Part shown: piece by piece, positions 10,477 through 27,113 of the stretch | Layout of the letters: each line of letters opens with the position of its first letter | How positions within the stretch are numbered: the stretch's first letter is position 1 | NCBI GenBank assembly: GCA_043814055.1 | Contig: JBDRKL010000006.1 | Coordinates: 1,679-65,678, forward strand | Direction of reading: 5' to 3' | DNA: 64,000 bases | Source of the DNA: an archaeon | Lineage (GTDB): Archaea > Undinarchaeota > Undinarchaeia > Undinarchaeales > JBDRKL01 | Position numbers and translations under genes: made by a program | The notes under the pieces: model-generated | Databases searched by the model: none | The model's input: the letters and a program-made list of their open reading frames with translations, nothing else | Told to the model about the DNA's origin: nothing

Positions 10477-10571
10477 GTTTTAGTAGGTAGTAAGTGGTGG
10501 TAGGTAATTAAGCATAATAAACTCAAATGAGTTGGCAAACTTTTAAATACGCTCATCCAGGCACTCTTCTC

Positions 10572-10850
10572 ATGGGCAGGAAACTATCCAACGAGGAATA
10601 CTCCAAACTGAAGAGAAATATTCTCAAGAAATTGTATGCGAACGAAGCGTTTCGCAAAGGTCATCTGCTGTTTGAACGGCTTCAGCATGGCATTCCACCG
10701 CACCTCTCTGGCTTTGTGAAGGGTGTTTTATCTGGCTTGCTGAACGAAGGGTTGGTGGTGCCCTATGGGAAGACAAAATATGGGGATGCGTACCAGTTAA
10801 ACATTCAAAAACTCCGCGAAATTGAAGAATATCTAAATTATCATAATTAG
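10572..10850 (+). CDS. Small winged-helix-like hypothetical protein
   Basis: TATA-like TTTTAAATA upstream; about 92 aa; followed by a wHTH gene. Confidence 0.6.
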   Translation: MGRKLSNEEYSKLKRNILKKLYANEAFRKGHLLFERLQHGIPPHLSGFVKGVLSGLLNEGLVVPYGKTKYGDAYQLNIQKLREIEEYLNYHN

Positions 10851-10885
10851 CCTATATCAGCTAAAAATAGAAATATATAAATACA

Positions 10886-11230
10886 ATGGAAATCACACAA
10901 AATGCAATGAGCAAGACAGTATTCCTCAGGGTATTTGGAGACACACCAATACTTCGCGTGCTGGACTTCCTCGTGGTGAACGAGGACTTTGACTACAGCA
11001 TGACTGACCTAGCAGAGCTCTCTTGCACGGGTTATGCTACGCTCAAATTGTTCTGGCCGCAGCTTGAGGCGAACAAAATAATAAAACAAACGCGCATTGT
11101 GGGGAAGGCAAAGATGTACAAGTTGAATTACTCAAATCCTGCTGTTTTGAAATTCCGGGAATTCTACTGGTCAATTACAAAACAGAAAGTAAATTCTGAG
11201 CCTGGCGTGAAACTCTTAGTGAAAAAATAA
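10886..11230 (+). CDS. Winged-HTH DNA-binding protein
   Basis: 'FGDTPILRVLDFL…DYSMTDLAELSCTGYATL…TRIVGKAKMYKLN', an archaeal wHTH pattern. Confidence 0.8.
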   Translation: MEITQNAMSKTVFLRVFGDTPILRVLDFLVVNEDFDYSMTDLAELSCTGYATLKLFWPQLEANKIIKQTRIVGKAKMYKLNYSNPAVLKFREFYWSITKQKVNSEPGVKLLVKK

Positions 11231-12133
11231 TTATCCTTTCCTGTCCTGCATTCTGAGCTCAAGCTTGTGTATTTCCTCGCCTTTCATTGCTTCGCCCAAC
11301 CCGCTTGAGAGATTTTTTAGCATTTCAGGATTATCATAATTGCTCGTTGCCTCAACTATTGCCTTCGCCATCTTCCTCGGGTTGTCCGCCTTGAAAATCC
11401 CAGAGCCCACAAAAATGCCGTCACACCCAAGCTGCATCATGAGCGACGCGTCCGCAGGAGTTGCAATTCCGCCTGCTGCGAAATTAACAACTGGCAAGCG
11501 CCCGAGTTTTCCTACTTGATTCACGAGCTCCACAGGAACTCTAAATTCTTTTGCCTTGTTCGCGAGGAACTCGTCGCACCCGAGCTCGTAGGACTCTCTA
11601 ATCTTCTTAATCTCAGCATTGATTATGCGAGTGTGCCTCACTGCCTCAACAACATTCCCTGTGCCTGGCTCGCCCTTTGTCCGAATCATCGCAGCGCCCT
11701 CGTTTATCCTGCGCAGGGCTTCTCCAAGATTCCTCGCTCCGCACACGAATGGCACTGTGAAATCCTTCTTTACAATGTGATTCATCTCATCCGCCGGCGT
11801 CAACACCTCGGACTCATCAACCATGTCAGCTCCGACTTCCTGTAGAATCTGTGCCTCAGCAAAATGCCCAATGCGGCACTTCGCCATAACTGGAATAGTA
11901 GTTGCTTCAATAATCTCCCTGACTTTCTCAGGGTCTGCCATCCGCGCCACGCCGCCCATTGCCCTGATGTCCGCTGGCACGCGCTCAAGCGCCATGACCG
12001 CGACAGAACCAGCTTTCTCAGCAATCTTGGCCTGCTCCACATTAACAACGTCCATAATCACGCCGCCCTTCTGCATCTTGGCGAATCCGCGCTTAAGCCG
12101 GTCAGAGCCGACTGTAATAGTAATGCTTGCCAT
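11231..12133 (-). CDS. pdxS: Pyridoxal 5'-phosphate synthase lyase subunit
   Basis: [49 protein letters not shown]. Confidence 0.98.
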
Positions 12134-12177
12134 TCCTGCTTCTCACTATGAATGGGGTATTTAATATCTTTTTTGCA

Positions 12178-12803
12178 TCATTGGTTCAGCCTGATTCTAA
12201 ACTTTTCCAGGGTTTCCCCAAAGAACGGGTTCTCAAAAATCAGGGGTTCAACAAGGCTGGGGTGCTCACTCTGTGTCTTTGCCATCCTCCTGAAGTTCGG
12301 CGTTGTGAAGTGCTCGTCTGCCATTTCACTTAGCTTCAATATAAAAAAGTGCAAAAGCGCCTGCGTAACTGCGGTTTTCCTGTCGTGCTCTTCTATTGTA
12401 GATTCAGTCAGGTTGAAGCCTGCCTCTCCCAAAAACCTCTTTGCCTTTTCAGTCTTTGTCCCGCCCTTCACTGGGATAAAAATCATGTTCTGCCCATCCA
12501 GCTCTGCGCCCGGCCCGAACATGGGGTGCAGACTTAAGATTTCAATGTCAAACCACTTTGCAAACTCAAGCGCATCTCTCAAGTGCGATTTGAGGGAGCA
12601 AATTTCAATCAGCAATGAGCCCTTTTTCATTTTGGGTGCGGTCTCCCTTATCACTTGGGCAGTGGCGCCAATCGGAACTGAAATTATAACCGCATCGCAA
12701 TCTTCGAGTTTTTTACCCACGCCAAAGCCACGCTGCTCCAAAAATCCTGCAATTAATCTGCCCATCCGCCCTCTGCCGCCGATAATCCCTACTACAGTGC
12801 CAT
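12178..12803 (-). CDS. tyrA: Prephenate dehydrogenase; its N-terminal Rossmann motif has no in-frame start (apparent -1 frameshift)
   Basis: VVGIIGGRGRMG (12795-12760) lies in frame upstream of the listed ATG 12765; SLHPMFGP; EEHD…QALLH. No ATG/GTG/TTG in that frame upstream of the motif. Confidence 0.85.
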
Positions 12804-13112
12804 TTGATACCGGCGCGTTTCGCGAGTCATATTCACTTCACCTCCTGTCTGTGGCTCTGTTATTTGTATCGACTCGCGATGCGAAAAGTTCACTTGTTCT
12901 TTTTTGCTGAGCCGTATCACTTCTCTTGCCACAGGTTCAAGCCCGTCCCATTTCCCAAGGACTTCACTCTCCCGTTCAGGGTCCTCAACCGCAGTCCTGC
13001 TATCCGCTTTGATGTTCCCTATGTCTCTCGCTACTTCAATCCTCTTCCAAATCAGCCTAATCAACTCCGCATCAATCAAGTCAATCTCCGAGCGCAGCTC
13101 TTTAATGCCCAT
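12792..13112 (-). CDS. aroQ: Chorismate mutase (AroQ type) with C-terminal extension
   Basis: LRSEIDLIDAELIRLIWKR…IGNIK…DPERE…IRLSKKEQ. Confidence 0.9.
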   Translation of the reverse strand: MGIKELRSEIDLIDAELIRLIWKRIEVARDIGNIKADSRTAVEDPERESEVLGKWDGLEPVAREVIRLSKKEQVNFSHRESIQITEPQTGGEVNMTRETRRYQMAL

Positions 13113-13440
13113 TCATATCCTCCATGACGATCTCCCCAACGAGGGTTAGTCCAACGCTTAACCCCTTGTTCCCTGCATCGCCGCAAACTATCAAGTTCAC
13201 ATCCCGAAGCGTCTGCAGTATCACCCTCACCGTGCTCTCCCCGAGGCACAGCTCTGCTGAAAGCCCCCTCAGCAGGGCAGACATTGTAATTTCATTTTCC
13301 AATTCTGCAACCTTCTTTAAAACTCGCTTTTGGTTTTTTGTCAGCCGCTTCCTGCTCAGCCTGAGCACAGCTTCCAAAAGCTCCTTCTGGCCCGCCCCTT
13401 CAGGCAGACCTCTCAGTATTGGCGCGGGGTCACCGCGCAT
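13102..13440 (-). CDS. Small winged-HTH protein, putative regulator in the chorismate mutase/tyrA operon
   Basis: LTKNQKRVL…ITMSALLRGLS…ESTVRVILQTLRDVNLI…LTLVGE, a wHTH pattern. Confidence 0.7.
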   Translation of the reverse strand: MRGDPAPILRGLPEGAGQKELLEAVLRLSRKRLTKNQKRVLKKVAELENEITMSALLRGLSAELCLGESTVRVILQTLRDVNLIVCGDAGNKGLSVGLTLVGEIVMEDMNGH

Positions 13441-13476
13441 TGAAATTGGCAGGCATCACCTTTCATATTTTTCACC

Positions 13477-13614
13477 TCAGTTTTTCCCATTTGCAACTAT
13501 CACTATCTTTCCCAGGATCCGCGTAACCCTGAGGTCGTGTTTTGGGACCTCTAGGCTGTCGACTACTTTTTTCACTTCTTTTTCCGTTGCCATTGGGCTC
13601 ATTACCACTATCAT
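13477..13614 (-). CDS. Unannotated 45-aa ORF resembling the N-terminal part of the ferredoxin-like/ACT regulatory domain of type I-beta DAHP synthase
   Basis: MIVVMSPMATEKEVKKVVDSLEVPKHDLRVTRILGKIVIVANGKN*; SD AGGTGA 6 nt upstream; resembles the MIVVLKPGSTEEDIRKVV… N-terminus of Thermotoga-type DAH7PS (from memory). Confidence 0.7.
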   Translation of the reverse strand: MIVVMSPMATEKEVKKVVDSLEVPKHDLRVTRILGKIVIVANGKN

Positions 13615-13620
13615 ATTCAT

Positions 13621-13698
13621 TCACCTGGTGGCAATAATCCTGTCTAGAACTCAGCAAGCAATGCAGTGAGAACCCGACAGAATTAGCCAGAACCAGGT
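13621..13698 (-). promoter_or_regulatory. Long RNA hairpin sequestering the SD of the 13614 ORF
   Basis: ACCUGGU/ACCAGGU, UGGC/GCCA, UAAU/AUUA, UCUGUC/GACAGG and CUCA/UGAG pairings; the 3' arm contains AGGU of the SD. Confidence 0.7.
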
Positions 13699-13705
13699 CC
13701 TCTAA

Positions 13706-13771
13706 TCAGTAAAAATAGCCAAAGCTAGATGTTTCAATTCCCTGTTCCTGTAGTGCAACAGCTTTGGTCAT
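13706..13771 (-). CDS. Phe/Tyr-rich leader peptide 2 (MTKAVALQEQGIETSSFGYFY)
   Basis: 21-codon ORF with TATA-like TTTATAAAA ~27 nt upstream; homologous to the leader at 20857-20919. Confidence 0.75.
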   Translation of the reverse strand: MTKAVALQEQGIETSSFGYFY

Positions 13772-13825
13772 TTTTCTTCTTTCACAGTGTATGTTCTTTT
13801 ATAAATAAGTTTTGGGCAAAAGACC

Positions 13826-14968
13826 CTAAAACACCCTGCCAAGGCTCTCAACCGCGTTCTCAAGCTCTTTCATTGGCCTTGAAAAGTTCATGCGCACATA
13901 GCTCTTCCATTCTTCCCCGAACTCCTCGCCCGGCACAACTGCCACGTTCGCCTCTTCCAAAGCTTTCTCTGTGAATGCGTCCCCGTCCATTCCAAGCCCG
14001 CTTACATCTGAGAACACATAGTATGCACCCTGCGGCATGAACGGCTTCAGCCCAAGCTTCTCAAGCTCCGGTACAATGTAGTCCCTTCGCTCCTCGTATC
14101 CATTCCTCATTTCCTCCACGCAGTCCTGTGGTCCCTTGAGCGCTGCGAGCGCTGCGTGCTGGCCCATTGAGGGTGCAGCTATGACCAAGTGTGTGTGCAG
14201 CTCTGTTATGGGCTTCATGAGTTCTTTCTCACATGTTACGTAACCCACGCGCCACCCAGTCATCGCGTACGTCTTTGAAAACCCGCTGAGCGTTACAGTC
14301 CTTTCCTGCATGCCATCGAACGAGCCAATGCTATGGTGCCTGTTCCCATCGTATAAGAGGTACTCATAAATTTCATCGCTGAGCACGAACAGGTCCTTGT
14401 CCATTGCAATGTCCGCAATCGCCTTGAGCTCGCCCTTGCCAAGCACGCGGCCGCTGGGGTTCTGCGGGCTGTTGAGCAGAATCGCCCTAGTTTTCCCAGT
14501 TACTGCGCCTTTCATAGCCTCTTCATTCAGCTTCAGCTCATCGCCCTCAAGCGGAACTTCTACTTTCTTTCCGTGCGCCATCTCAACGCTCGCCCTGTTC
14601 GTTGAGAAGCACGGGTTTATGAGAATGACTTCATCATCAGGATCAACCAGACCAAGCATGGTTGCAGAGAGCCCTTCCATTGCCCCAACTGTGATAATGA
14701 CTTCGCTCTCCGGGTCTGCCTCAATCTTGTTGTAGCTCTTCAGCTTTTCAGAAACCGCCTCGCGCAGTTCTTTGTAACCAATCATGGGCGCATACTGGTT
14801 GTGCCCTGCAACTATTGATTCAATCGCCGCTTTCTTTATGTGCTCAGGCGTGTCAAAGCCCGGGCTGCCCTGGGCCAGCATTATTGCCCCGCGTTTGTAC
14901 GCCTCAAGTGTCATGCTGCGTATTTTGCACGTCCCAACCCGCGTTGACCTTTCTGAATATTTCTTCAT
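13826..14968 (-). CDS. Class I/II PLP aminotransferase (probable aromatic/aspartate aminotransferase)
   Basis: LNSPQNPSG, LSDEIYE, SGFSKTYAMTGWRVGY; last gene of the aro operon. Confidence 0.92.
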   Translation of the reverse strand: MKKYSERSTRVGTCKIRSMTLEAYKRGAIMLAQGSPGFDTPEHIKKAAIESIVAGHNQYAPMIGYKELREAVSEKLKSYNKIEADPESEVIITVGAMEGLSATMLGLVDPDDEVILINPCFSTNRASVEMAHGKKVEVPLEGDELKLNEEAMKGAVTGKTRAILLNSPQNPSGRVLGKGELKAIADIAMDKDLFVLSDEIYEYLLYDGNRHHSIGSFDGMQERTVTLSGFSKTYAMTGWRVGYVTCEKELMKPITELHTHLVIAAPSMGQHAALAALKGPQDCVEEMRNGYEERRDYIVPELEKLGLKPFMPQGAYYVFSDVSGLGMDGDAFTEKALEEANVAVVPGEEFGEEWKSYVRMNFSRPMKELENAVESLGRVF

Positions 14969-15963
14969 TGCTCTCCCTTGTTTTTCCTACTTAATAAATG
15001 GTCCAAAATCACGATTGCAACCATGGCCTCTGCAACCGGGAGTATGCGCGGAACTATGCACGGGTCGTGCCTGCCCTTTACAGAAAGCTTTGCCGGCTTC
15101 ATTGTCCTCAAGTCAATCGTGTCCTGCTCCTTTGCTATAGATGATGTGGGCTTGACAGCTATTCTACAGACAATCGGCATGCCGTTTGAAATCCCGCCCA
15201 GAATGCCTCCTGCGTTGTTTGTCCTTGTTTTCAGCTCTCCATCCTCAACAACAATCGCATCATTGTTCTCAGAGCCGAGCATCTTCGCAGATTCAAACCC
15301 TGCGCCAATCTCAACGCCTTTCACAGCTGGAATGCTCATCAGTGCCTTTGCAAGCTCTGCGTCAAGCTTGCCGAACACTGGCTCGCCTAGGCCTGGCGGA
15401 ATCCCGGTTGCTGTAATCTCCACAATGCCGCCAACAGAATCCCCGTCCGCTTTTGTTTTTAGAATCTCATCTTCAATGCCTTCGTTCATCCCGTGGACTT
15501 CAATGATTCTTGTCGCTATTTCAATCCCCTCTTTCTCCAAGACCTGCTTTGCAACCGCGCCTGCCAAGACTCTCCCGACTGTTTCACGGCCTGAGGCCCT
15601 TCCACCCCCTGCCGGGATTTTTCCAAACTTCTGGAACTGCGCCATGTCCGCGTGCCCCGGCCGCGGCTTATTCATTATTTCGGAGTAGTCCTCTGGGCGT
15701 GCGTCCACGTTCCTGACCTGCAGTTTGATGGCTCCAGTGGCCTTGCCGTTCTCTATGCCTGAAACAACCTCAAGCTTGTCTGGCTCTTTCCTTGCAGAGC
15801 TCAGTTCGCTGTGCCCTGGCCTCCTGCGGCTTAGTTCCTCCTGGATTCCGTCAAGCGAAATTTCAGTGCCTGCAGGAACCCCTTCAATCACGCAGCCCAC
15901 TGCATCTCCGTGGGACTCGCCATGTGTGGTTACTTTGAAGCTCTTTCCTATTGTGTCGCTCAT
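14965..15963 (-). CDS. aroC: Chorismate synthase
   Basis: GESHG, RPGHAD, RASGRET, KPTSSI, GRHDPCIVPR. Confidence 0.98.
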   Translation of the reverse strand: MSDTIGKSFKVTTHGESHGDAVGCVIEGVPAGTEISLDGIQEELSRRRPGHSELSSARKEPDKLEVVSGIENGKATGAIKLQVRNVDARPEDYSEIMNKPRPGHADMAQFQKFGKIPAGGGRASGRETVGRVLAGAVAKQVLEKEGIEIATRIIEVHGMNEGIEDEILKTKADGDSVGGIVEITATGIPPGLGEPVFGKLDAELAKALMSIPAVKGVEIGAGFESAKMLGSENNDAIVVEDGELKTRTNNAGGILGGISNGMPIVCRIAVKPTSSIAKEQDTIDLRTMKPAKLSVKGRHDPCIVPRILPVAEAMVAIVILDHLLSRKNKGEQ

Positions 15964-17096
15964 CCTTCCACCTCCATATTCGCCCCAAGGCTCTGCATAA
16001 CCTCAACAAAATTTGGGAACGACACAGAGAGCATCTCCGCATCCGAAATCTTGGTTTCACCCTCTGCAATCAGCCCTGCAACCGCGAGCGCCATTACAAT
16101 CCGATGGTCCTTGTGGCCGTCCACAGCCGTGCCGCTGAGTGAGCTCTTCCCAACTATGAGCCCGTCTGGCTTTTCTTCAACCTCCACTCCCATCTTCCCG
16201 AGCTCAGAGGCCATGGCAGCTATCCTGTCGCATTCCTTCTCGCGGCAATGCCCTGCGCCGCTGATTTCTATTCCTTGTTTAACGCCGAGCACTGAAACTA
16301 TGGGGAGCAGGTCTGGGTTATCATTCAGGTTGATTTGTCTTGGCTTTTCCCTGAGTATACCCAGAATCCGCTTGTCCCCCTGCACATCGTTGGTCTCAAG
16401 ATTTGCAATCTCTACTTTTGAACCAGTGAGCTCAGCTGCAGCCAGCAGATTCGCAGCAGCTGAGAAATCTCCTGGCACTTTGAAATCCGTTGCTTTTGGA
16501 ATCTGGCCTCCTTTTATCTTGAACATATTCCCCTCTTTTTCAATCCCAATCCCAACCCGTTTCAAATGCCCCAAGGTCATCTCCAGGTATGGCCTCGACC
16601 TGAGATTTCTCACAACGATTTCTGTATCAGTCTCCAACAGCGGGCATGCCATCAAAAGCGCGGAAACGAACTGTGAGCTCGTCCCTTCAATCTCAGCCCT
16701 GCCTGTTTTCTTAATCTCTTCGCACGCATCGAGCAGCGGCTGTATCGGCCTCTTCTGGATTGATTCATCGCCCTGCATCTCCATTCCCAGGCCAAGCAGG
16801 GAATTCAATGCTGAAAACAGCCTGAGAGTGGTGCCTGAGTTCATCACATCCACGGGCCCTATGTTCTTTATCAGGTTCCCTGCAACTCCTTTTATTTCAC
16901 TGCCAACCACTTCAGCCCCAATCGCCTTGCATGCATCGATGGTTGCGCTTGTGTCATCGCAAATCAGCATATTCTCAATTCTTGAAACCCCGTCCGCGAG
17001 ACTTGCCAGTAGCAAAGCGCGGTGCGTATGGCTCTTAGAGCCCGGCACTTCTGCTTGGCCTTCAAGCCTTTCAGTTTTTTTCACCAAGAGCTTCAT
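15960..17096 (-). CDS. aroA: EPSP synthase (compact, 378 aa)
   Basis: PGSKSHTHR, NSGTTLR, SSQFVSALLMA, REKECDRI, DHRIVMA. Confidence 0.95.
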   Translation of the reverse strand: MKLLVKKTERLEGQAEVPGSKSHTHRALLLASLADGVSRIENMLICDDTSATIDACKAIGAEVVGSEIKGVAGNLIKNIGPVDVMNSGTTLRLFSALNSLLGLGMEMQGDESIQKRPIQPLLDACEEIKKTGRAEIEGTSSQFVSALLMACPLLETDTEIVVRNLRSRPYLEMTLGHLKRVGIGIEKEGNMFKIKGGQIPKATDFKVPGDFSAAANLLAAAELTGSKVEIANLETNDVQGDKRILGILREKPRQINLNDNPDLLPIVSVLGVKQGIEISGAGHCREKECDRIAAMASELGKMGVEVEEKPDGLIVGKSSLSGTAVDGHKDHRIVMALAVAGLIAEGETKISDAEMLSVSFPNFVEVMQSLGANMEVEG

Positions 17097-17910
17097 TTAA
17101 TGCCTCCCTCATCACTTCAACCGGCGCATCTTTGCCTGTGAATATCCTGAACTGTTCCGCACCCTGGTGCACGAGCATCCCGCGGCCTTCAACAATCTTG
17201 CACCCTGCTTTCCCGGCCTCCTTTAGCAGCAAAGTCTTCCTTGGCGTGTACACTATGTCGTTCACAACCAGGCCGGGGTGCATATCCACGGCTTTCACAA
17301 GAGTTTTATCCTCCTGCGTGCCCTTCATCCCAACTGATGTTGTGTTTATGAGGATGTCCACGTTTCTTATTTTAGAACCCAAATTGCTCAAATCGCCCGC
17401 GGCAACCTCCAGCCCAGTCTCTTCATTCACATCCCGCGCAAGGGCCTCGGCTTTTTCAGGCGTCCTGTTCGCAATCTCCAAAGCCTCAGCGCCGCTCAAC
17501 GCAAGTGTGAAAGCAATGGCCCTTGCTGCCCCGCCCGCGCCCAGAATCAAGGCGCTCTTCCCGGAAACTTCAACGCCTGCCTCTTCCAGCGCATTCACGC
17601 ACCCAATGCCGTCAGTGTTGTGGCCAACCAGCTTGTTTTCTTTCCTTTGCACAGTGTTGACTGCTCCAATCAGCTCGGCCTCTTTTGACAATCCGTCCAT
17701 CAGCGGCAGGATGCTCTGCTTGTGCGGTATTGTTATGCTCGCTCCGCTTATCTCGCCGCTGCGAATCCTCTCAATGAACTTCTTGAGCTCTTCGGGCTTG
17801 ACGCGAATCTTCTCGTAAGTGTGCTCCAGTCCAAGCTCCCTTAGGGCCGCATTGTGCATCGCGGGGCTCAGCGAGTGCTCCACAGGGTCCCCAATCACGC
17901 AGAGTTTCAT
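17071..17910 (-). CDS. aroE: Shikimate dehydrogenase
   Basis: HSLSPAMHN, TIPHK, GAVNT, NTDG, GAGGAAR, GMLVHQG. Confidence 0.97.
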   Translation of the reverse strand: MKLCVIGDPVEHSLSPAMHNAALRELGLEHTYEKIRVKPEELKKFIERIRSGEISGASITIPHKQSILPLMDGLSKEAELIGAVNTVQRKENKLVGHNTDGIGCVNALEEAGVEVSGKSALILGAGGAARAIAFTLALSGAEALEIANRTPEKAEALARDVNEETGLEVAAGDLSNLGSKIRNVDILINTTSVGMKGTQEDKTLVKAVDMHPGLVVNDIVYTPRKTLLLKEAGKAGCKIVEGRGMLVHQGAEQFRIFTGKDAPVEVMREALNEALGEKN

Positions 17911-18989
17911 CTCAGCCCAGCCTCCTTGTATATATTGACCATGCTTTCAAGCGGAAGCTGCCCCGGCGCGATGTTTCCTGCGTAGGTCAGGTAAGAGCCA
18001 AGGAGCGGCGCTGCAACCCTTGTGTGCCTGCCAAGTTCGCCCATTCCAACCACAATCAGGTCTTTCCTTTCCTGGGCGAGCTTAAGAAGCCTTTCAGCAT
18101 CCTCAAGAGTGTTCACTTTGCACGCAATTTTCTTCAAATCCCCGCCCTCTGGGATTTTAATTTCCTCCGGCGTCTTCTCGAAGTCGTGCATGGACACTAT
18201 GACCTTGCAGCCGTTGAGCCTGGCCTTCTTGACGATCCTTTCCTTGTTTTCATCTTCAGCGTCAACGTCCACTAGGTCGCACCCCGCTTCAATCGCCCTA
18301 ATTATATTCTCCGGGTTCTCCCGGTCAGTTGCAATCACAGGAAGCCCGCTCATCTGGACCAGCTGGAGTATCTGCGGGTTCTCAATCAGGTCGAGCCGCA
18401 GCTCAACCATGCCCGCGCCTTTCTCCAAGGCTGACTCTATTTGTTTTTCCGGGTTCTCCCCTGCAATGCACGCGCATATTCTGACACTTGGAAGTTTTAT
18501 TAGCGACACCACTTTCTGTGCAACTTCTTCAATGCTAAGCCCATCAGTTTCAATCGTGAAGTCCGCGTTCCTGTAGAACGGCATTCTGCCCTCTGAGTGC
18601 TTTCTCAGCTCCTCCTCTGGATTCAGCTTGTTCAGCAGCGGCCTGTCCTTCTTGCCTTTCAGCCTCTCATGCAAAGTCTCCACTGAGGCCTTCAGATTTA
18701 CAACCAAGCCATTGCGCCTCAGGCGCCTCATGTTTACAAACCTCAGGACAGCACCGCCCCCTGTTGCAATCACGTGATTGTCGAGCTTAGCTACCTCTGC
18801 AACAACGCTTTCCTCAAGCTCCCTGAACTTTCCCTGGCCGTGCTTTTCAAATATTTCATTTATGCCCATCCCCGCTTTCTGCACAACGAGCTCGTCCGTG
18901 TCCACAAATTCCATTCCAAGCGCTTCCGCTACATCTTCCCCAACTGCGCTTTTCCCAGAGCCCATCGGGCCTGTTAGAACGAGGTTCAT
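17907..18989 (-). CDS. aroK-aroD: Fusion of bacterial-type shikimate kinase (AroK) and type I 3-dehydroquinate dehydratase (AroD)
   Basis: N-terminal GPMGSGKS P-loop, DTD, ATGGG, RPLL; C-terminal VELRLD, SMHDFEKTP, KIA, MGELG…R, APGQ. Confidence 0.92.
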   Translation of the reverse strand: MNLVLTGPMGSGKSAVGEDVAEALGMEFVDTDELVVQKAGMGINEIFEKHGQGKFRELEESVVAEVAKLDNHVIATGGGAVLRFVNMRRLRRNGLVVNLKASVETLHERLKGKKDRPLLNKLNPEEELRKHSEGRMPFYRNADFTIETDGLSIEEVAQKVVSLIKLPSVRICACIAGENPEKQIESALEKGAGMVELRLDLIENPQILQLVQMSGLPVIATDRENPENIIRAIEAGCDLVDVDAEDENKERIVKKARLNGCKVIVSMHDFEKTPEEIKIPEGGDLKKIACKVNTLEDAERLLKLAQERKDLIVVGMGELGRHTRVAAPLLGSYLTYAGNIAPGQLPLESMVNIYKEAGLR

Positions 18990-19951
18990 AAATATCTCAC
19001 CTCAACTTCTCCGATTGACTTTGGGACCACAACCCTGATTTTTTCGCCTTGTTTCTTCTTGTCAACTTTCATGGCTTCCCTCAGCTCTTCATCAGTGAAC
19101 TCTGTTTCAGTGGGCAAGCCGATTCTCTCCAGCAAGTTTCGTATTCTTTCAACTTCGACTCCACTCAGCTCAGCCGCTTTTACAAGGCCCATTGCAACCG
19201 CCTCACCGTGCGGAATTGTGCAGTTGCTCAATTTCTCTATGGCGTGCCCGAAAGTATGCCCCAAATTGAGCTTCATCCGCTCGCCTCTCTGCTCAAGCTC
19301 ATCCTGCTCAACAATTCTTGCTTTCACTTTAACGCAGCGAGCCACAATCTCCTCCTGAAGCGTTTCATCCTTCTCCATAATCTGGTCAAGCTCCAGCTCA
19401 ATCAGCTCAAACAGCCCGGCATCCCCTACAATCGCGGTCTTCACAACCTCTGCAAGCCCATTCTGCATCTCCTTCTCCGGCAATGTCTTTAGGAGCGAAA
19501 CATCGCTCACAACGAGCTTCGGCTGCTTGAACGCCCCAACCAGATTCTTGCCCTGCAGCAAATTCACTCCCACTTTCCCGCCGATTGAACTGTCGACCTG
19601 TGCGAGCAGTGTCGTTGGCACCTGAATGAGCGGAACTCCGCGCATGAAACTTGCTGCGGCCATGCCTGTGGTGTCTCCAACCACCCCGCCACCCAATGCA
19701 ATTAAGGCAGTGCCCCTGTTCGCGCCTAGCTCCACGAGTTCCTCGCACAATTTCTTCACAGTTTCCAGGCTCTTCGCCATCTCAGAATCACCAATCTCCA
19801 AAATCGGGCACTTCAGGAATGAGCCGTGCAGCTTTCTCACAGTTGGGTTTGTAATGCACACAGCATTCTCCTGCTCAACCCGCCCAAGCAATCCAGTTCC
19901 CACTAGAACTGTGTGCTTCCTTTTCCCCAGGTCCACTGTAATCTTTCTCAT
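18986..19951 (-). CDS. aroB: 3-dehydroquinate synthase (bacterial type)
   Basis: [46 protein letters not shown]. Confidence 0.97.
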
Positions 19952-20820
19952 AGCGCTCTCCCAACTGCTTCTGCAACTTTCCTCGCCGAGTGCATCATGC
20001 GCTCAAACTCCTCTGGCAGCAGTGCCTGCGGCCCGTCGCACAGCGCCTTCTCAGGCTCTGTGTGCACTTCAACAATGAGGCCGTCCGCCCCGGCGGCAAT
20101 CGCCGCCATGCACATAGGCACTATGAGCTCTTTCTTCCCGGTTGCATGGCTCGGGTCAACTATCACCGGCAAATGGCTGAGCTTTTTCAGCACAGGCACA
20201 GCGCTCAAGTCAAGCGTGTTCCTCGTTTCAGTCTCAAAAGTCCGTATCCCGCGCTCGCAGAGAATCACGTTTTCATTCCCCTCTGCCATTATGTACTCGG
20301 CAGAGAGCAGCAGTTCCTTCACTGTTGCGTTGAACCCACGCTTTAGCAGGACTGGTTTCCCTGCCTTGCCCACGGCTGTGAGCAGGTCGAAGTTCTGCAT
20401 GTTCCTGCACCCAATCTGCAGGACGTCAGCGCGCCTTGCAACAATGCCCACGTTCTCCGTTGTCATGACCTCTGTGACTATGGGGAGCCCAGTCTCTTTC
20501 TTTGCCTCCTGCAGTATTTTCAAGCCAGCTTCGCCGAGCCCCTGGAAGCTGTAGCACGAAGTGCGGGGCTTGAACGCGCCACCGCGCAGCATCACTGCAC
20601 CAGCCCTCTTGACGGCTCGCGCAGTTCCGAGTGTTTGATTCCTGTTCTCGACTGCGCACGGCCCTGCTACCACTACGACGCGCTCTTCTCCAACCCTAAC
20701 GCCTTCCACGTCCACAACCGTGTTTTCTTCTTTAAACTCCCGACTAACTAGTTTGAACTGTTGCGTTTCATTCACAACTCGCTCAACATGGGATAATTTT
20801 TCTATACTCTCTTTTGTCAT
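19948..20820 (-). CDS. aroF: DAHP synthase type I-beta lacking most of its N-terminal regulatory domain
   Basis: [43 protein letters not shown]. Start at ATG 20820 behind SD GGTGA. Confidence 0.95.
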
Positions 20821-20849
20821 TTGAATCACCATAAGTAGAGGGTTCAAAT
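20819..20849 (-). promoter_or_regulatory. Hairpin sequestering the aroF SD and start codon
   Basis: AUUUGAACC…GGUGAUUCAAAU; begins 7 nt after the leader stop. Confidence 0.6.
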
Positions 20850-20856
20850 CCCCTGA

Positions 20857-20919
20857 TTAAAACCCATAGCCAAAGCTAGAGCTTTCTTCTTCAGTTCCAG
20901 TTAGTTTTGCTTTGGTCAT
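20857..20919 (-). CDS. Phe/Tyr-rich leader peptide 1 (MTKAKLTGTEEESSSFGYGF)
   Basis: 20-codon ORF with AGGAGGTGA (20922-20930) and TATATAAAA (20943-20951) upstream; homologous to 13706-13771. Confidence 0.75.
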   Translation of the reverse strand: MTKAKLTGTEEESSSFGYGF

Positions 20920-20944
20920 TTTCACCTCCTATGTGTCCTCCATT

Positions 20945-21739
20945 TTATATATCCTTTCTGAGCAAAAGACCCTGCCTGCACGCGTTTTTCATATCTGCAG
21001 TGAACTTTGCAATTTCGGACAGAGCTTTTTCTTCGTCTGGAATATGCTTCTCGTAAATTCGCCCAATCGCGCTTCCCACAATCGCGCCGTCCGCCCCTGC
21101 TGCGACAACTTCACGCGCATGTTCCGGTTTTGAGATTCCAAATCCTGCCATGAGTGGCAGGTCTGTGCGCGCGCGAATCCTTTTTATGAGCTCAACTGTA
21201 GACTCTGCAACTTTGTCACGAGTTCCTGTAACACCCATCACTGTAACTAGATAGATAAAGCCACTTGCATTTTCAATTGTTTTTTTAAGCCGCTCCCCTT
21301 TCGTGTTCTGCGTTGCGAACAATATCACGTGAAGCCCATGTTTCTGCCCCAGGGCAATCAAATTCCCTGCTTCTTCAAGCGGCAGGTTCGGCACTATGAT
21401 GCCCTGCGCGCCCGCGCTCTTTATGCTTTTGATAAAGTTTTCTTCTCCTGCATGATGTACCACATTGTAATATGTGGTGATAATAACCGGCACTTTGATT
21501 CCAGCGCTTCTCACCTTCCGTATACCCTCAATGCACTTTGACGGAGTCGTCCCAGCATCAAGCGCCCGCTTGCAAGCGTCCTGGAAAACCGGGCCATCGC
21601 TAGTCGGATCTGAGAACGGAATTCCAAACTCTATCAAATCGGCTCCGTTCTCAACGAGCGTTTTTATCTGCGCAAGCGAGAACTCCTCAGAAGGGTATCC
21701 ATAGTACACATGCGCCATGAGCGCGCCTTTATGTATCAT
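20945..21739 (-). CDS. trpA: Tryptophan synthase alpha chain
   Basis: [42 protein letters not shown]. Confidence 0.97.
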
Positions 21740-22883
21740 CGTAATCCCTCACTATGTCCAGGTCCTTGTCGCCTCTTCCTGAAAGGCAGACCACAACCAA
21801 ATCTTCTTTCTCAAATTTCTCTTTCAGGACTTGTGCAATTGCGTGCGAGCTCTCTATCGCTGGCAATATGCCTTCCAGCCTGCACAACTTCCTAAACGCT
21901 TTAACTGCCTCTGCATCAGTCACTGCCTCAACCCTGCACCTTCCAGTCTTTGCGTAATGGGCAAGCTGCGGCCCAATTCCCGGGTAGTCCAAGCCAGGTG
22001 CTATGGAATGCGCGTCCTTTATCATCCCTTCTTTGCTCTGCAAGAACTTTGACTTCATTCCATGCAGAACCCCGTCTTCCCCGGCGCGCATGACCGCGCC
22101 GTGCTCTCCGCTTTCAATGCCTTTGCCCCCTGCCTCGCACGCAACAAACTCCACGTTGTCTTTTTCAAACGGATAGAACAAGCCCATTGCATTGCTGCCC
22201 CCGCCTGCGCACGCGAAGAGGCGGGTTGGCAGCCTGCCCTCTTTTTCCAAAATCTGCGCCCTCGCCTCTTTTCCTATCACAGACTGGAAATCCCGCACCA
22301 TCATAGGATATGGGTGCGGGCCAACCACTGTCCCGATAAGATAGTGCGTGTATTCTGAACTTGCCGCATAATCGCGCAGCGCCTCGTTTATCGCGTCTTT
22401 CAAGGTTCGCGACCCTGCATCAACTGGAACCACTTTTGCGCCGAGCAGCTCCATTCTGTGCACGTTCATGCTCTGCCGCTCCACATCCTTGCTACCCATG
22501 TAAACATCGCACTCCATTCCAAAGAACGCTGCAGCTGTTGCAGTCGCAACCCCGTGCTGCCCTGCCCCGGTCTCAGCTATGAGCCTGGTCTTCCCCATTT
22601 TCTTTGCAAGAAGCCCCTGCGCCATCACATTGTTTATCTTATGTGCTCCGGTGTGGTTCAGGTCCTCGCGCTTCAGGTACACTTTGCATCCAACCTCCTC
22701 ACTCAGCGCTTTTGCGTGATAGAGCGGCGAGGGTCTGCCAACGTATTCCTTCAGGCAGAGCTCAAGCTCTTGCTTGAATTCCCTGCTCGTTGAGTGCTTC
22801 AGGTAAGCCTGCTCCAGCTCTTTCATGACTGGTATGAGAAGTTCGCTCACATACTGCCCGCCGTATTCCCCATACCTAGCCAT
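21729..22883 (-). CDS. trpB: Tryptophan synthase beta chain (TrpB1)
   Basis: [45 protein letters not shown]. Confidence 0.98.
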
Positions 22884-23628
22884 TGGACCCACCCTTAAGT
22901 TCGCGTATTTTCCCGCCGATATCCTTCGCAGTCCAAAGCGCAGTTCCAACAAGTATGCCACTCACCCCTGCTTTTTTTACAAGCTCCACATCCCGCCGGG
23001 ATTTTATCCCGCTCTCGCTTACCACTGGCTGTTTGACATCATCAAACGCGCTGAGTATTTTTTCAGTCTGCGTTACGTCAACACTCAAGGTCTGCAGATC
23101 CCTGTTATTTATTCCCAGGACATCTGCCCCAGTTCCAAGTGCTTTTTTAAACTCAGCTTCATCGTAGCTCTCAAGAAGCACTTCTAGGTCATTCTTGTGC
23201 GCAGTGTCAATAAGCGAACCCAAGTCAAGCCCAAGCCGCTCGGCAACCTTCACAACCAGAAGAATTGCATCTGCTCCAAATCTCTTTGCAGCCTTTATCT
23301 GCTCTTCACAGATCACAAAATCCTTGAAAAGCACGGGCAGCCCTGCTTTCTTCGCAGCTGAAACATTCTCAAGCTTTCCCTTGAATATCTGTGGTTCAAC
23401 CACAACCGAAATCGCGTCAGCCCCACTTTGCCTGAACAAGTGCGCGGTTTTCTCCACGTTAATGTTCTTAAACGAGTACTCCTCTGCAGGCGAGGCATGC
23501 TTTATCTCCGCAATCAGGCTAAAGCCCTGCGACTCAAGTTTTTCCTTCAATGAAACTTTTCCTGCTCCATAGTAGCCGCTCCCCACATTCTCCCTGGCTT
23601 TTTCAATAAATTCATCAAGTATGTCCAT
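22876..23628 (-). CDS. trpC: Indole-3-glycerol phosphate synthase
   Basis: [28 protein letters not shown]. Confidence 0.96.
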
Positions 23629-24610
23629 CTGCCTCAAACCTCCTGAGCAAGTTGAGCTTTTCAAGGGCCTTGCCGCTGTCTATGGAGTTCTCTGCAAGCC
23701 CAACTCCTTCTTTTATTGTCTCCGCTCTCCCCCCAACATAAATCGTAGTAGCTGCGTTCAAAACCACAATGTCGCGCTCCGGCCCTTTTGCGCCTTTCAG
23801 AATTCTCAAAATAGTTTCTGCACTTGATTCAGACTCCTGGATGTCCTTATTTTTAAAACCCAACTCGCCAGCATCCAAAAAGTACGTTTCAATTTGCCCG
23901 TTCTTCAGCTCAGAAACTTTTGTCTTTCCAAGCCCGAGCTCGTCCATGCCCTCTGAGTGCACCACGAGCGCGTGCCTTGTTCCAAGCCCTCTCAAAACCT
24001 CTGCAAGCGTTTCAGTAAGCCCAGGGTCAAACACCCCGAGCACCTGTGCCCCAGCGTTGGCTGGATTCGTCAAGGGCCCAAGCAAGTTGAATACTGTGCG
24101 AATGCCAAGCTCTTTCCTGACCGGCAGGGCATGCTTCATCGCAGGGTGAAAATTCGGCGCAAACATAAACCCGATTCCAATTTGCTCTATGCAACGCTCA
24201 ACCTGCTGTGGTTCCAAATCCAGATTAACCCCAAGCTCTTCAAGCACGTCCGCGCTCCCGCACTTTGAAGTAACAGACAGATTCCCGTGCTTTGCAATTT
24301 TAACCCCTGCCCCAGCTGCCACAAAAGCCGCGGCAGTGCTTACATTGAAAGTCTTTTTAGAATCCCCGCCTGTGCCGCAAGTGTCGACTAGAGTCCCTTT
24401 TGGATTTATGTGCTCGCAGAACTTCCTCATCACTTTTGCAAATGCTATGATTTCCATAGTTGTCTCTCCTTTAACCCTCAAAGCAGTGAGCAGCGCTGCA
24501 ATTTGAGCAGGGGTTGCAGTTCCGTTCATTATTTCTTTCATAGCGCCCTCTGCCAATTCCGAAGACAGCTCTTTCCTTTCTACAACCAACTTAATCGCTT
24601 CTCTAATCAT
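23615..24610 (-). CDS. trpD: Anthranilate phosphoribosyltransferase
   Basis: DTCGTGGD, NVST, KHGN, GSADVLE, RTVFNLLGPLTNP. Confidence 0.97.
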   Translation of the reverse strand: MIREAIKLVVERKELSSELAEGAMKEIMNGTATPAQIAALLTALRVKGETTMEIIAFAKVMRKFCEHINPKGTLVDTCGTGGDSKKTFNVSTAAAFVAAGAGVKIAKHGNLSVTSKCGSADVLEELGVNLDLEPQQVERCIEQIGIGFMFAPNFHPAMKHALPVRKELGIRTVFNLLGPLTNPANAGAQVLGVFDPGLTETLAEVLRGLGTRHALVVHSEGMDELGLGKTKVSELKNGQIETYFLDAGELGFKNKDIQESESSAETILRILKGAKGPERDIVVLNAATTIYVGGRAETIKEGVGLAENSIDSGKALEKLNLLRRFEADGHT

Positions 24611-26491: not shown

Positions 26492-26534
26492 TGGAATGGC
26501 ATCGCCTTATGTTCCATTTTAATCTCAAACTTAG

Positions 26535-27078: not shown

Positions 27079-27113
27079 AAGTGTGCATTGGTGTTACCTT
27101 TATAAAACTCTTT

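What the first reader, a model, noticed from the sequence alone, without database searches (positions are those of the whole stretch)
13614..20951. Paired Phe/Tyr-rich leader peptides with SD-sequestering hairpins: candidate aromatic-amino-acid attenuation system in an archaeon
Seen: two short ORFs missed by the track, MTKAKLTGTEEESSSFGYGF* (20857-20919, before aroF) and MTKAVALQEQGIETSSFGYFY* (13706-13771, before the ACT-fragment/HTH/chorismate mutase/tyrA unit). They share MTKA and SSFGY, and all their aromatic codons sit in the last five codons. Each has a TATA-like box upstream. In both, a hairpin starts exactly 7 nt after the stop (spacers tcagggg and ttagagg) and pairs with the downstream SD: AUUUGAACC/GGUGAUUCAAAU for aroF, and ACCUGGU/ACCAGGU closing an ~80-nt stem for the other. 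Both also have a competing hairpin over the leader stop: GGGUUU-U-AAUC/GAUU-U-GAACCC and GAUUAG-AGGAC/GUUCU-GG-CUAAUU. Known: bacterial pheL/trpL leaders and cat/erm translational attenuators use ribosome stalling to switch alternative hairpins, and such amino acid leaders are barely characterised in archaea. Inference: ribosome position on the Phe/Tyr codons sets the translation, and possibly coupled transcription, of the shikimate and Tyr/Phe genes. Which conformer is ON cannot be decided by eye.
Basis: partly seen in the sequence, partly recalled or inferred. Interest (0 to 1): 0.9.

Follow-up and report, generated by a model that had tools for sequence, protein, structure and literature searches.

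The report
Aromatic leader peptides in small archaea
Two tiny genes ending in phenylalanine and tyrosine codons sit in front of this archaeon's aromatic amino-acid operons, belong to a family found upstream of the same enzyme gene in many other small archaea, and most likely let the ribosome itself sense Phe/Tyr supply, a control mode so far described for bacteria.

Summary
Both short ORFs are real, on the minus strand at 20919-20857 and 13771-13706. They sit at the heads of the DAHP-synthase/shikimate operon and of a chorismate-mutase/TyrA unit. Their TATA boxes lie 28 and 30 nt before the ATG, the spacing of leaderless genes in this genome.

They are not isolated. In two other archaeal phyla, aromatic-tailed short ORFs occupy the same place upstream of DAHP synthase: 17 of 47 short ORFs there against 7 of 272 elsewhere in the same loci (p 7e-11). 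They share a C-terminal S-F-x-Y-x-F core. Two homologous pairs show purifying selection on the peptide (3 synonymous, 0 non-synonymous changed codons; and synonymous sites saturated with pN 0.14).

Most members have a stable helix abutting the stop codon (mean z -2.1, 19 segments). For leader 2 this helix buries the downstream ribosome-binding site. A modelled ribosome on the last codons lowers the opening cost from 7.9 to 4-1.9 kcal/mol. Leader 1 shows no such switch.

Best reading: ribosome-mediated Phe/Tyr attenuation in Archaea, closest to the mycobacterial leaderless cysteine sensor ORFs. There are no expression data. My five literature searches listed no archaeal precedent.

The parts
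20962..20973 (-). Conserved block A just 5' of the leader-1 TATA box, inside the end of trpA. Candidate transcription-factor site.
   Evidence: 12 nt identical in both modules. There are 4 exact copies of the 11-mer in the genome, and only these two lie next to a TATA box.
20943..20951 (-). TATA-like box of leader 1. It overlaps the trpA stop codon.
   Evidence: Centre is 28 nt before the ATG, and the genome-wide peak is 24-29 nt.
20922..20929 (-). Perfect 8-nt Shine-Dalgarno match before leader 1. It would serve read-through transcripts coming from the trp operon.
   Evidence: Read. SD motifs peak 5-10 nt before starts in this genome.
20857..20919 (-). Leader ORF 1: 20 codons plus stop, with 3 of the last 5 codons Phe/Tyr.
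   Evidence: It aligns with the family.
20840..20865 (-). Small hairpin spanning the last two sense codons and the stop of leader 1.
   Evidence: In the MFE. Not significant against shuffles.
20819..20849 (-). Weak alternative hairpin pairing with the DAHP synthase SD (20830-20825) and start (20820).
   Evidence: Forms only with a masked footprint. Opening cost is 2.5-3.6 kcal/mol throughout.
19948..20820 (-). DAHP synthase, which lacks the N-terminal ferredoxin-like domain. It is the first gene of the shikimate operon that runs on to the aminotransferase at 14968-13826.
   Evidence: PF00793, E 3e-82. The other operon genes were named by eye and not tested.
13816..13827 (-). Conserved block A just 5' of the leader-2 TATA box.
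13797..13805 (-). TATA-like box of leader 2.
   Evidence: Centre is 30 nt before the ATG.
13706..13771 (-). Leader ORF 2: 21 codons plus stop, with 4 of the last 5 codons Phe/Tyr.
13623..13698 (-). Long helix starting 7 nt after the leader-2 stop. Its 3' arm covers the SD (13626-13621) of the next ORF.
   Evidence: MFE and centroid (z -3.28). Opening cost of SD plus AUG is 7.9 kcal/mol free, 5.3-3.9 with the A site on codons 17-21, and 1.9 at the stop.
13477..13614 (-). 45-codon ORF encoding the first half of a DAHP-synthase ferredoxin-like domain. It is the first cistron after leader 2, and an alternative ATG lies at 13620.
   Evidence: PF18152, E 2.7e-5, 24.3 bits, below the cut-off of 27. 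Its N-terminus resembles that of full-length FL-DAHPS genes in L119 and others.
12178..13440 (-). Rest of the leader-2 unit: weak winged-helix ORF (13440-13102), chorismate mutase (13112-12792) and prephenate dehydrogenase (12765-12178).
   Evidence: The helix-turn-helix hits are below threshold.

Best explanation
The two ORFs are translated leader peptides. They belong to a previously unannotated family of short ORFs with Phe/Tyr(/Trp)-rich C-terminal tails that head DAHP-synthase (shikimate) operons in small-genome archaea.

How it most likely works:
1. Each promoter places the transcription start within a few nucleotides of the leader ATG, so the first ribosome loads on a leaderless or near-leaderless mRNA. 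This step is inferred from TATA geometry.
2. When charged Phe- or Tyr-tRNA is scarce, the ribosome dwells on the aromatic codons, which lie within the last five codons. This step is inferred by analogy.
3. Its footprint then covers or melts the helix that begins next to the stop codon.
4. In the leader-2 unit, that helix and the leader's own aromatic codons bury the SD and start of the next cistron. Stalling therefore exposes the ribosome-binding site and turns on translation of the chorismate-mutase/TyrA unit. With ample Phe/Tyr the ribosome terminates, leaves, the helix re-forms and the unit is off. This step is modelled, not measured.
5. For leader 1 the output step is unresolved. Only 34 nt separate its stop from the DAHP synthase start, and no energetic switch is predicted. 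Coupling or reinitiation, or control mainly at the shared promoter element (block A), are the options.

The two leaders together would form a small ribosome-directed Phe/Tyr regulon next to a TrpY-controlled trp operon.
For: Position and promoter geometry. Both ORFs sit at operon heads with TATA centres 28 and 30 nt before the ATG. The genome-wide peak is 24-29 nt, and 38 of 13140 short ORFs share this geometry. Leader 1 also has a perfect 8-nt SD.

Paralog conservation. Three perfect blocks of 15, 14 and 12 nt sit in otherwise about 60%-identical modules, a pattern seen in 7 of 100000 shuffles. The indel between the two ORFs is exactly one codon.

Family.
- In the phylum of G037, 56 of 215 genomes have DAHPS. 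In the phylum of G255, 49 of 401 do.
- Over 80 fetched loci, 17 of 47 short ORFs in the free sequence up to 450 nt upstream on the same strand have at least 5 of their last 8 residues aromatic. Elsewhere the figure is 7 of 272 (Fisher odds ratio 21, p 7e-11).
- 17 of the 30 loci with at least 80 nt of free upstream sequence have one.
- 4 of the 7 control hits are same-strand ORFs one gene further upstream.
- In ten whole cluster stretches, 6 of the 7 aromatic-tailed ORFs among 134 intergenic short ORFs are the one just before DAHPS.
- The order trpB-trpA-leader-DAHPS recurs in L246, L247 and L252, as in the window.

Peptide alignment. 19 members give the consensus S-F-x-Y-x-F with an invariant Phe. 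The window's leaders are 64, 50 and 30% identical to leader 2, L223 and L206.

Coding selection.
- L196/L197: the ORF has 4 nt changes in 3 codons, all synonymous. The 70 nt upstream are identical, and the 333 aligned columns downstream carry 38 mismatches and 6 gap columns.
- L255/L261: of 32 codons, 11 are identical, 11 synonymous and 10 non-synonymous, with pS saturated and pN 0.143.

Stop-abutting helix. The z-score of the 83 nt from the stop codon averages -2.09 over 19 segments, and 13 are at or below -1.89. The helix begins 0-10 nt from the first base of the stop.

Leader-2 switch. Shown.

Mechanistic precedent. Leaderless polycysteine ORFs in mycobacteria (10.1101/834739; abstract and discussion read).
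Against: - No RNA or ribosome data exist for this organism (one search listed no run).
- No close relative of this genome is held, so the two window leaders themselves cannot be tested for conservation. The nearest DAHPS is at most 64% identical, and no other genome of its order or phylum has the gene.
- Leader 1 shows no predicted switch and no significant structure.
- The conserved blocks of the two leaders are identical at the nucleotide level, third codon positions included. This also fits RNA- or DNA-level constraint.
- The thresholds for 'aromatic tail' and the target zone were set after the pattern was seen.
- Some counted loci are near-duplicates (L196/L197, L259/L260).
- The other pairs give no clear dN/dS signal (L269/L273: pS 0.22, pN 0.33).
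- Three of the 19 family segments also lack significant structure after the stop (L259 +0.52, L262 +0.87, L267 -0.12).
- No prephenate dehydratase was found in the genome, which is 82% complete, so Phe synthesis itself is unconfirmed.
- Folding was done at 37 C with bacterial-style footprints, and the growth temperature is unknown.
Confidence: 0.62

Rival explanations
1. The conserved blocks are DNA operators of a duplicated promoter module. Block A upstream of TATA, plus the inverted repeat formed by the start-codon block and the Phe-Gly-Tyr block, would be bound by a transcription factor such as the winged-helix ORF at 13440-13102. The ORFs would be incidental to regulation.
For: - Block A lies directly 5' of both TATA boxes, where archaeal activators such as Tar bind. 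Tar's gene also lies inside an aro operon (PMC6737238, passages read).
- The blocks are identical at the nucleotide level, synonymous positions included.
- The start/tail hairpin alone is no more stable than shuffles (z -1.0 and -1.56).
- The neighbouring trp operon is evidently factor-controlled, since a TrpY-family gene precedes it.
Against: - The family in other phyla keeps the peptide tail while the nucleotides change. There are synonymous-only or synonymous-saturated pairs, and the ORFs are enriched at the same position.
- The spacing between the two half-sites differs by 3 bp (39 against 42), which turns the helical face by about 100 degrees but keeps the reading frame.
- The half-sites lie inside the transcribed region, about 40 bp apart, which is unusual for one dimeric operator.
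- A factor acting at block A is compatible with the leader model rather than exclusive of it.
Confidence: 0.12
2. The ORFs are sensors, but the output is premature transcription termination (archaeal oligo-U signals or factor-dependent polarity after ribosome release) and not unmasking of a ribosome-binding site.
For: - 12 of 17 family members have a run of at least 5 T within 100 nt after the leader stop.
- Several members have spacers of 96-130 nt, in which the stop-abutting helix does not reach the downstream SD.
- Leader 2 itself ends in a run of five U, and the leader ORFs end just before long untranslated stretches.
Against: - In the window neither spacer contains a run of 5 or more T after the stop.
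- The terminator scan found nothing at either leader.
- Leader 1's spacer is only 34 nt.
- I computed no background rate of T runs for AT-rich intergenic DNA.
- In leader 2 the helix demonstrably overlaps the SD.
Confidence: 0.2
3. The short ORFs encode functional micropeptides that act in trans, with conserved N- and C-terminal motifs. Their place before aromatic operons would reflect co-expression, not sensing.
For: - Peptide-level selection.
- A conserved core motif.
- Trans-acting roles are known for a bacterial leader peptide (peTrpL, PMC7298713, seen only in search listings).
Against: - Apart from the aromatic tail, the sequences are very divergent (mean column identity 30%), which is the pattern of regulatory leaders.
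- The constant features are aromatic codon density next to the stop and a helix abutting the stop. Neither has an obvious meaning for a free peptide.
Confidence: 0.08
4. Chance ORFs in duplicated intergenic DNA, with no function.
For: - About 1.5% of short ATG ORFs in this genome (154 of 10255) have at least 3 aromatic residues in the last six.
- Only two copies exist, and there are no close relatives.
Against: - Block conservation.
- Promoter geometry.
- Recurrence in other phyla at p 7e-11.
- Coding selection.
Confidence: 0.03

Closest known systems
Mycobacterial polycysteine leaderless short ORFs, the 'Cys ribulon' (Canestrari et al., 10.1101/834739; abstract and discussion read)
   Same: - A leaderless short ORF is the first cistron of a biosynthetic operon.
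- It carries a cluster of codons for the pathway's end product.
[quoted passage not shown]
- Several operons of one pathway each have their own sensor ORF.
   Different: - The domain is Archaea, with TATA/BRE promoters.
- It would sense Phe/Tyr, and Trp in some family members, instead of Cys.
- The regulatory codons sit in the last five codons, directly against a helix abutting the stop.
- Nothing is experimentally shown here.
- Leader 1 lacks the duplex.
Enterobacterial pheL and trpL leader-peptide transcription attenuators (recalled; pheL paper PMC3082878 seen only as a search listing)
   Same: A short leader ORF rich in the regulatory amino acid's codons lies ahead of the biosynthetic genes, and ribosome position selects between RNA conformers.
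   Different: - No hairpin-plus-U-run terminator lies between leader and first gene in the window.
- No 1:2/2:3/3:4 architecture is evident.
- Archaeal RNA polymerase terminates differently.
- The output is probably translational.
ermC and cat translational attenuation (as summarised in the discussion of 10.1101/834739)
   Same: A ribosome stalled in a leader ORF opens a hairpin that hides the SD of the downstream gene.
   Different: There the stall is caused by an antibiotic and the nascent peptide. Here it would be caused by a shortage of charged tRNA.
Tar (TK0271) and TrpY, the known archaeal regulators of aromatic amino-acid operons (PMC6737238, passages read)
   Same: - The targets are the same: aro, tyr-phe and trp operons.
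- The window has a TrpY-family gene before trpE.
- A shared element (block A) lies just upstream of both leader TATA boxes, the position where Tar binds.
   Different: - These are DNA-binding proteins acting on initiation, not ribosome sensors.
- The block-A sequence is unrelated to the published Tar palindrome.
- The winged-helix ORF in the window matched no family at threshold.

Membership tests
Leaderless sensor-ORF translational attenuators (mycobacterial Cys ribulon type) | The short ORF begins at or within a few nt of the transcription start and is the first cistron of the operon. | tested here: inconclusive
   TATA centres lie 28 and 30 nt before the ATGs, matching the genome-wide leaderless peak. 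No transcription-start data exist.
Leaderless sensor-ORF translational attenuators (mycobacterial Cys ribulon type) | A cluster of codons for the end product of the controlled pathway. | tested here: met
   3 of 5 and 4 of 5 last codons are Phe/Tyr. The family tails have at least 5 of 8 aromatic residues.
Leaderless sensor-ORF translational attenuators (mycobacterial Cys ribulon type) | An RNA duplex sequesters the downstream ribosome-binding site and is disrupted by a ribosome on the regulatory codons. | tested here: inconclusive
   Met in silico for leader 2 (7.9 to 3.9-1.9 kcal/mol; z -3.28). Not met for leader 1 (2.5-3.6 kcal/mol throughout).
Leaderless sensor-ORF translational attenuators (mycobacterial Cys ribulon type) | Several operons of the same pathway each carry a sensor ORF. 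| tested here: met
   Two copies in the genome, at the shikimate operon and at the CM/TyrA unit, and nowhere else.
Leaderless sensor-ORF translational attenuators (mycobacterial Cys ribulon type) | Downstream expression responds to limitation of the amino acid and depends on the regulatory codons. | not testable with these tools
   Needs reporter or proteomic experiments.
Classical leader-peptide transcription attenuators (trpL/pheL/hisL type) | An intrinsic terminator (GC-rich hairpin followed by a U run) lies between the leader and the first structural gene. | tested here: not met
   No terminator-like site at either leader, and no run of 5 or more T after either stop. Many family members elsewhere do have T runs (12 of 17).
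Classical leader-peptide transcription attenuators (trpL/pheL/hisL type) | Mutually exclusive antiterminator and terminator pairings chosen by ribosome position. | tested here: inconclusive
   Leader 1 has two overlapping weak hairpins. Leader 2's alternative hairpin never appeared in an MFE or centroid.
Known structured RNA regulators (T-box, riboswitches, Rfam leader motifs) | A match to a curated covariance model. | tested here: not met
   No relevant Rfam hit in window 10000-28000 at E up to 1, nor in 17 family loci at E up to 0.1 (only a 5S rRNA).
Tar/TrpY-type transcription-factor control | A shared operator next to BRE/TATA of the co-regulated promoters, and a cognate regulator gene. 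| tested here: inconclusive
   Block A is shared and adjoins both TATA boxes. The candidate winged-helix ORF has only sub-threshold hits. TrpY_fam (197 bits, cut-off 180) is present but sits at the trp operon.

The most novel reading that the evidence does not exclude
Ribosome-mediated amino-acid attenuation exists in Archaea and is widespread. A family of leaderless or near-leaderless sensor ORFs with Phe/Tyr/Trp-rich tails and a helix abutting the stop would control shikimate-pathway operons across at least three phyla of small-genome archaea. This genome would carry two members forming a Phe/Tyr 'ribulon' beside a TrpY-controlled trp operon. The family may combine translational unmasking with archaeal oligo-U termination, and in about a third of members the leader's own start region pairs with its aromatic codons, which could limit sensing to the first ribosome.
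Probability: 0.5. Interest if true: 0.88.

Novelty: new variant of a known kind. Interest (0 to 1): 0.82.

Why it matters
According to the Tar paper passages read, control of amino-acid biosynthesis in Archaea is known almost only through a few DNA-binding regulators (TrpY, Tar). The same paper notes that many archaea with aro, tyr-phe and trp operons lack both.

Leader-peptide attenuation is a textbook bacterial mechanism. It depends on coupling between ribosome and RNA. My five literature searches listed no archaeal case. The Haloferax ribosome-profiling paper only records that upstream short ORFs exist and are uncharacterised in Archaea.

A conserved, easily recognised family of aromatic sensor ORFs would have several uses:
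- It would give archaeal translation-coupled regulation a concrete, testable model.
- It would supply annotation targets that gene callers miss.
- It would offer parts for amino-acid-responsive switches in archaeal hosts.
- It would bear on whether such control is ancient or moved with the operon, since this genome is the only one of its phylum held here that has the pathway.

Tried and rejected
- **Close relatives.** The 12 other genomes of the order and the 16 other genomes of the phylum have neither the motif nor a true DAHP synthase. Metagenome and genome-collection scans gave only hits of at most 64% identity, mostly bacterial. I used distant archaeal holders of the gene instead.
- **Other archaeal FL-DAHPS genes.** Five of the six archaeal loci (L004, L098, L099, L103, L107) abut an upstream gene and have no leader.
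- **L051.** Its aromatic ORF lies in what looks like a bacterial T-box leader and was dropped.
- **Firmicutes loci.** L072, L078, L086 and L095 have Tyr/Phe-rich ORFs about 275 nt upstream. I did not follow them up.
- **SSFGY-like regex.** A regular-expression scan over L004-L177 found nothing convincing.
- **Rfam.** Nothing relevant.
- **Sequencing runs.** None was listed and no RNA holder was listed.
- **Start/tail hairpin.** Folded alone it is not significant. Across the family the start/tail duplex is significant in only some members: z at or below -2.6 in 7 of 18, mean -1.37 (L197, L260 and L206 left out).
- **Leader-1 SD switch.** Rejected on energy.
- **Other copies of block A.** The two further exact copies lie in coding sequence without a TATA box.
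- **Fusion of the 45-codon ORF with the winged-helix ORF.** Two in-frame stops lie between them.
- **Other leader-like ORFs in this genome.** None of the other 36 TATA-associated short ORFs shows an amino-acid run.
- **Unused tools.** Structure and complex prediction and the large protein searches were not used. The peptides are too short, and genomic context could not be fetched from those collections.
- **Rows left out.** omitted L197 and L260 (near-duplicates of L196 and L259) and added L223 and L206, which fall below the 5-of-8 threshold. One search omitted L260 and L274.
- **Paper supplements.** These are closed. Fig. S7 and the tables of PMC6737238 and the supplementary tables of 10.1101/834739 might bear on the distribution of regulators and of sensor ORFs.

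Full report
**What is in the window.** All genes of the region lie on the minus strand. Reading 5' to 3', the order is as follows.
- A TrpY-family regulator (27078-26578; NCBIfam TrpY_fam, 197 bits against a cut-off of 180).
- The trp genes, ending with trpA (21739-20945).
- Leader ORF 1 (20919-20857).
- A DAHP synthase without an N-terminal regulatory domain (20820-19948, PF00793).
- Five further ORFs that I read by eye as shikimate-pathway genes (not tested).
- A class I/II aminotransferase (14968-13826).
- Leader ORF 2 (13771-13706).
- A 45-codon ORF that matches the first half of the DAHP-synthase ferredoxin-like domain (PF18152, E 2.7e-5, just under the cut-off).
- A weak winged-helix ORF, a chorismate mutase and a prephenate dehydrogenase.

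**Are the ORFs more than chance?** About 1.5% of short ATG ORFs in this genome (154 of 10255) have three or more aromatic residues in the last six. Three further observations argue against chance.
- The motif pair occurs only at these two sites in the 0.98-Mb genome, which is 82% complete.
- Promoter geometry fits. TATA-like boxes peak 24-29 nt before start codons genome-wide, the signature of leaderless mRNAs. The two leaders have boxes centred at 28 and 30 nt. Only 38 of 13140 short ATG ORFs have such a box. Leader 1 also has a perfect 8-nt SD, useful if trp transcripts read through.
- The two modules align from upstream of the TATA box to the stop with 76 of 122 identical columns. The identity is concentrated in three perfect runs of 15, 14 and 12 nt, a clustering reached by 7 of 100000 shuffles.

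The first two are reverse complements of each other. The length difference between the ORFs is exactly one codon.

**Relatives.** The genome is the only member of its family held. None of the other 16 genomes of its phylum has a DAHP synthase. The best hits in the metagenome and genome collections are at most 64% identical and mostly bacterial. Conservation in close relatives cannot be tested.

I therefore asked whether distant archaea with the same enzyme have anything similar. One locus (L119, whose record title names a Woesearchaeota archaeon) has an aromatic-rich ORF ending 71-73 nt before its DAHPS. Five other archaeal loci have no free upstream sequence.

I then surveyed two phyla. In the phylum of G037, 56 of 215 genomes have the gene. 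In the phylum of G255, the genome that holds L119, 49 of 401 sampled genomes have it. I examined 50 and 30 loci respectively.

**A family.** Most of these DAHPS genes abut the preceding gene. Where there is free sequence upstream, a short ORF with a strongly aromatic tail is usually there.
- Over all 80 loci, 17 of 47 short ORFs in the free sequence up to 450 nt upstream on the same strand have at least 5 of their last 8 residues Phe, Tyr or Trp. This involves 17 of the 30 loci with at least 80 nt of free upstream sequence.
- Elsewhere in the same loci the figure is 7 of 272 (Fisher odds ratio 21, p 7e-11).
- Four of the seven 'control' hits are on the DAHPS strand one gene further upstream and are probably leaders at the true operon head.
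- In ten longer cluster stretches, 6 of the 7 aromatic-tailed ORFs among 134 intergenic short ORFs are the one directly before DAHPS.
- Mononucleotide shuffles of three upstream gaps never reached the observed tail (0 of 500 each).
- In three genomes the order is trpB, trpA, leader, DAHPS, as in the window.

The 19 aligned peptides share only the initiator Met and one invariant Phe, inside a C-terminal consensus S-F-x-Y-x-F. The window's leader 1 is 64% identical to leader 2, 50% to L223 and 30% to L206. L223 even uses the same four codons for Ser-Phe-Gly-Tyr.

Caveats apply. The thresholds and the zone were chosen after I had seen the pattern. Two pairs are near-duplicates. Kin are not independent.

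**Are they translated?** Two homologous pairs speak to this.
- L196 and L197 are two species of one genus and encode identical 26-residue peptides. The ORFs differ at 4 nucleotides in 3 codons, all synonymous. The 70 nt upstream are identical, and the 333 aligned columns downstream have 38 mismatches and 6 gap columns. Nei-Gojobori gives pS 0.159 and pN 0.017.
- L255 and L261 align over 32 codons: 11 identical, 11 synonymous and 10 non-synonymous, with synonymous sites saturated and pN 0.143. The ORF is 66% identical, against 37% upstream and 52% downstream.
- The other pairs are too divergent or uninformative. L259/L260 differ by one non-synonymous change, and L269/L273 show no excess of synonymous change.

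This is the pattern of translated ORFs whose residues, or codons, matter.

**A common structural feature.** I folded the 83 nt that begin at the stop codon, by coordinate reference. The result is a mean z of -2.09 over 19 segments, with 13 at or below -1.89. The helix begins 0-10 nt from the first base of the stop. A ribosome on the last codons must therefore melt or block this helix.
- Leader 2 is a typical member (z -3.28).
- Leader 1 is an exception (z +0.57 from the stop; -0.40 and -0.74 when its last codons are included).
- 12 of 17 members have a run of five or more T within 100 nt of the stop. I computed no background for this. The window's two leaders have none.
- Pairing between the start region and the aromatic tail is significant in 7 of 18 members, including leader 2 (z -4.28). 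It is marginal in leader 1 (z -1.58). The mean is -1.37. It is recurrent but not universal.

**Mechanism in the window.** I forced a 28-31-nt footprint unpaired at each leader codon and computed the cost of opening the downstream SD and start codon.
- **Leader 2.** The free RNA costs 7.9 kcal/mol, because the long helix covers the SD and the leader's own aromatic codons pair with the start region of the next ORF. With the A site on codons 17-21 the cost falls to 5.3-3.9, and at the stop to 1.9. Stalling on the Phe/Tyr codons would therefore expose the ribosome-binding site.
- **Leader 1.** The cost is 2.5-3.6 kcal/mol whatever the ribosome position. The SD-pairing hairpin appears only when the competing stop-spanning hairpin is masked, and even then raises the cost by under 1 kcal/mol. 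I therefore do not accept the proposed SD switch for leader 1. With only 34 nt to the DAHPS start, coupling or reinitiation, or control at block A, remain possible.

No bacterial-type terminator is predicted at either leader.

**Other layers.** Block A adjoins both TATA boxes and nowhere else adjoins one. This is the position of the Tar operator in Thermococcus, whose regulator gene also lies inside an aro operon (PMC6737238, passages read). A transcription factor, perhaps the sub-threshold winged-helix ORF of the leader-2 unit, may thus act as well. This does not compete with the leader model. As an alternative to it, the operator-only reading is disfavoured by the family data.

The 45-codon ferredoxin-like-domain fragment behind leader 2 resembles the start of full-length DAHPS genes elsewhere. 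The DAHPS behind leader 1 lacks that domain. Together these suggest that promoter, leader and gene start were duplicated and then diverged (inference).

**Comparison with what is known.** The closest system is the mycobacterial polycysteine leaderless short ORFs. There, stalled ribosomes block a duplex that hides the next gene's ribosome-binding site, and several operons share the design (10.1101/834739, abstract and discussion read). ermC and cat attenuation is the same logic with a different stall signal. The classical trpL/pheL attenuators share the sensor but not the terminator output.

Rfam holds no matching family. Five full-text searches listed no archaeal amino-acid-sensing leader peptide. 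I read only listings and abstracts of most hits, and subscription journals are not covered, so I cannot say it is not in print. The Haloferax ribosome-profiling paper mentions uORFs as uncharacterised in Archaea (passages read).

**Verdict.** The finding opens onto a family that appears unannotated. It is a new variant of a known kind: ribosome-mediated attenuation, here in Archaea with leaderless-type promoters. No expression or functional data exist. Confidence in the sensor function is about 0.6.

Noticed in passing
window 27078-26492 (minus strand): A TrpY-family regulator gene (197 bits, cut-off 180) lies directly upstream of trpE, in the same direction. The 86-nt gap before trpE holds a TATA-like box flanked by two to three copies of a palindromic hexamer that I recall as the TRP box of Methanothermobacter. 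The trp operon thus seems factor-controlled, while the aro and tyr units carry leaders.
   Followed up: partly
window 20962-20973 and 13816-13827: A block conserved just 5' of both leader TATA boxes, partly palindromic in the leader-2 copy. It is a candidate operator for a shared transcription factor.
   Followed up: partly
window 13620-13102: A 45-47-codon fragment of the DAHP-synthase ferredoxin-like domain is followed by two in-frame stops and then a winged-helix-like ORF in the same frame. A strong SD precedes an out-of-frame ATG at 13466. This may be a decayed or frameshifted gene, or an assembly error.
   Followed up: partly
window about 12850-12760: The chorismate mutase ORF ends in a stretch preceded by a strong SD. 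The prephenate dehydrogenase Rossmann motif continues in another frame. This looks like a one-base frameshift at the start of tyrA. Both enzymes are short, with only partial Pfam matches.
   Followed up: no
whole genome G000: No prephenate dehydratase (PF00800) was found in a genome that is 82% complete. This is the only genome of its phylum held here that has a DAHP synthase, so the aromatic cluster may have been acquired horizontally.
   Followed up: partly
L072, L078, L086, L095 (metagenome contigs): Tyr/Phe-rich short ORFs lie about 275 nt upstream of DAHP synthase in contigs that look bacterial (gut metagenomes). These are probably bacterial leader peptides of the same logic.
   Followed up: no
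L186, L187, L190, L193 (positions about 1-1005, DAHPS strand): Aromatic-tailed short ORFs lie one gene upstream of DAHPS and were counted as controls. They are probably leaders at operon heads where another gene precedes DAHPS.
   Followed up: no
L259/L260 and L262; L269, L273, L274: Two sub-groups have alignable spacers after the leader. The helix arms differ in sequence but stay complementary. They are good material for a covariance model.
   Followed up: no
L269:2794-2909: A 5S rRNA gene lies on the opposite strand next to the DAHPS leader locus (Rfam, 70.6 bits).
   Followed up: no
L196/L197, about 140-230 nt after the leader stop: A second small ORF of about 29 codons, with a strong SD, lies between the leader and DAHPS and is conserved between the two species.
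   Followed up: no
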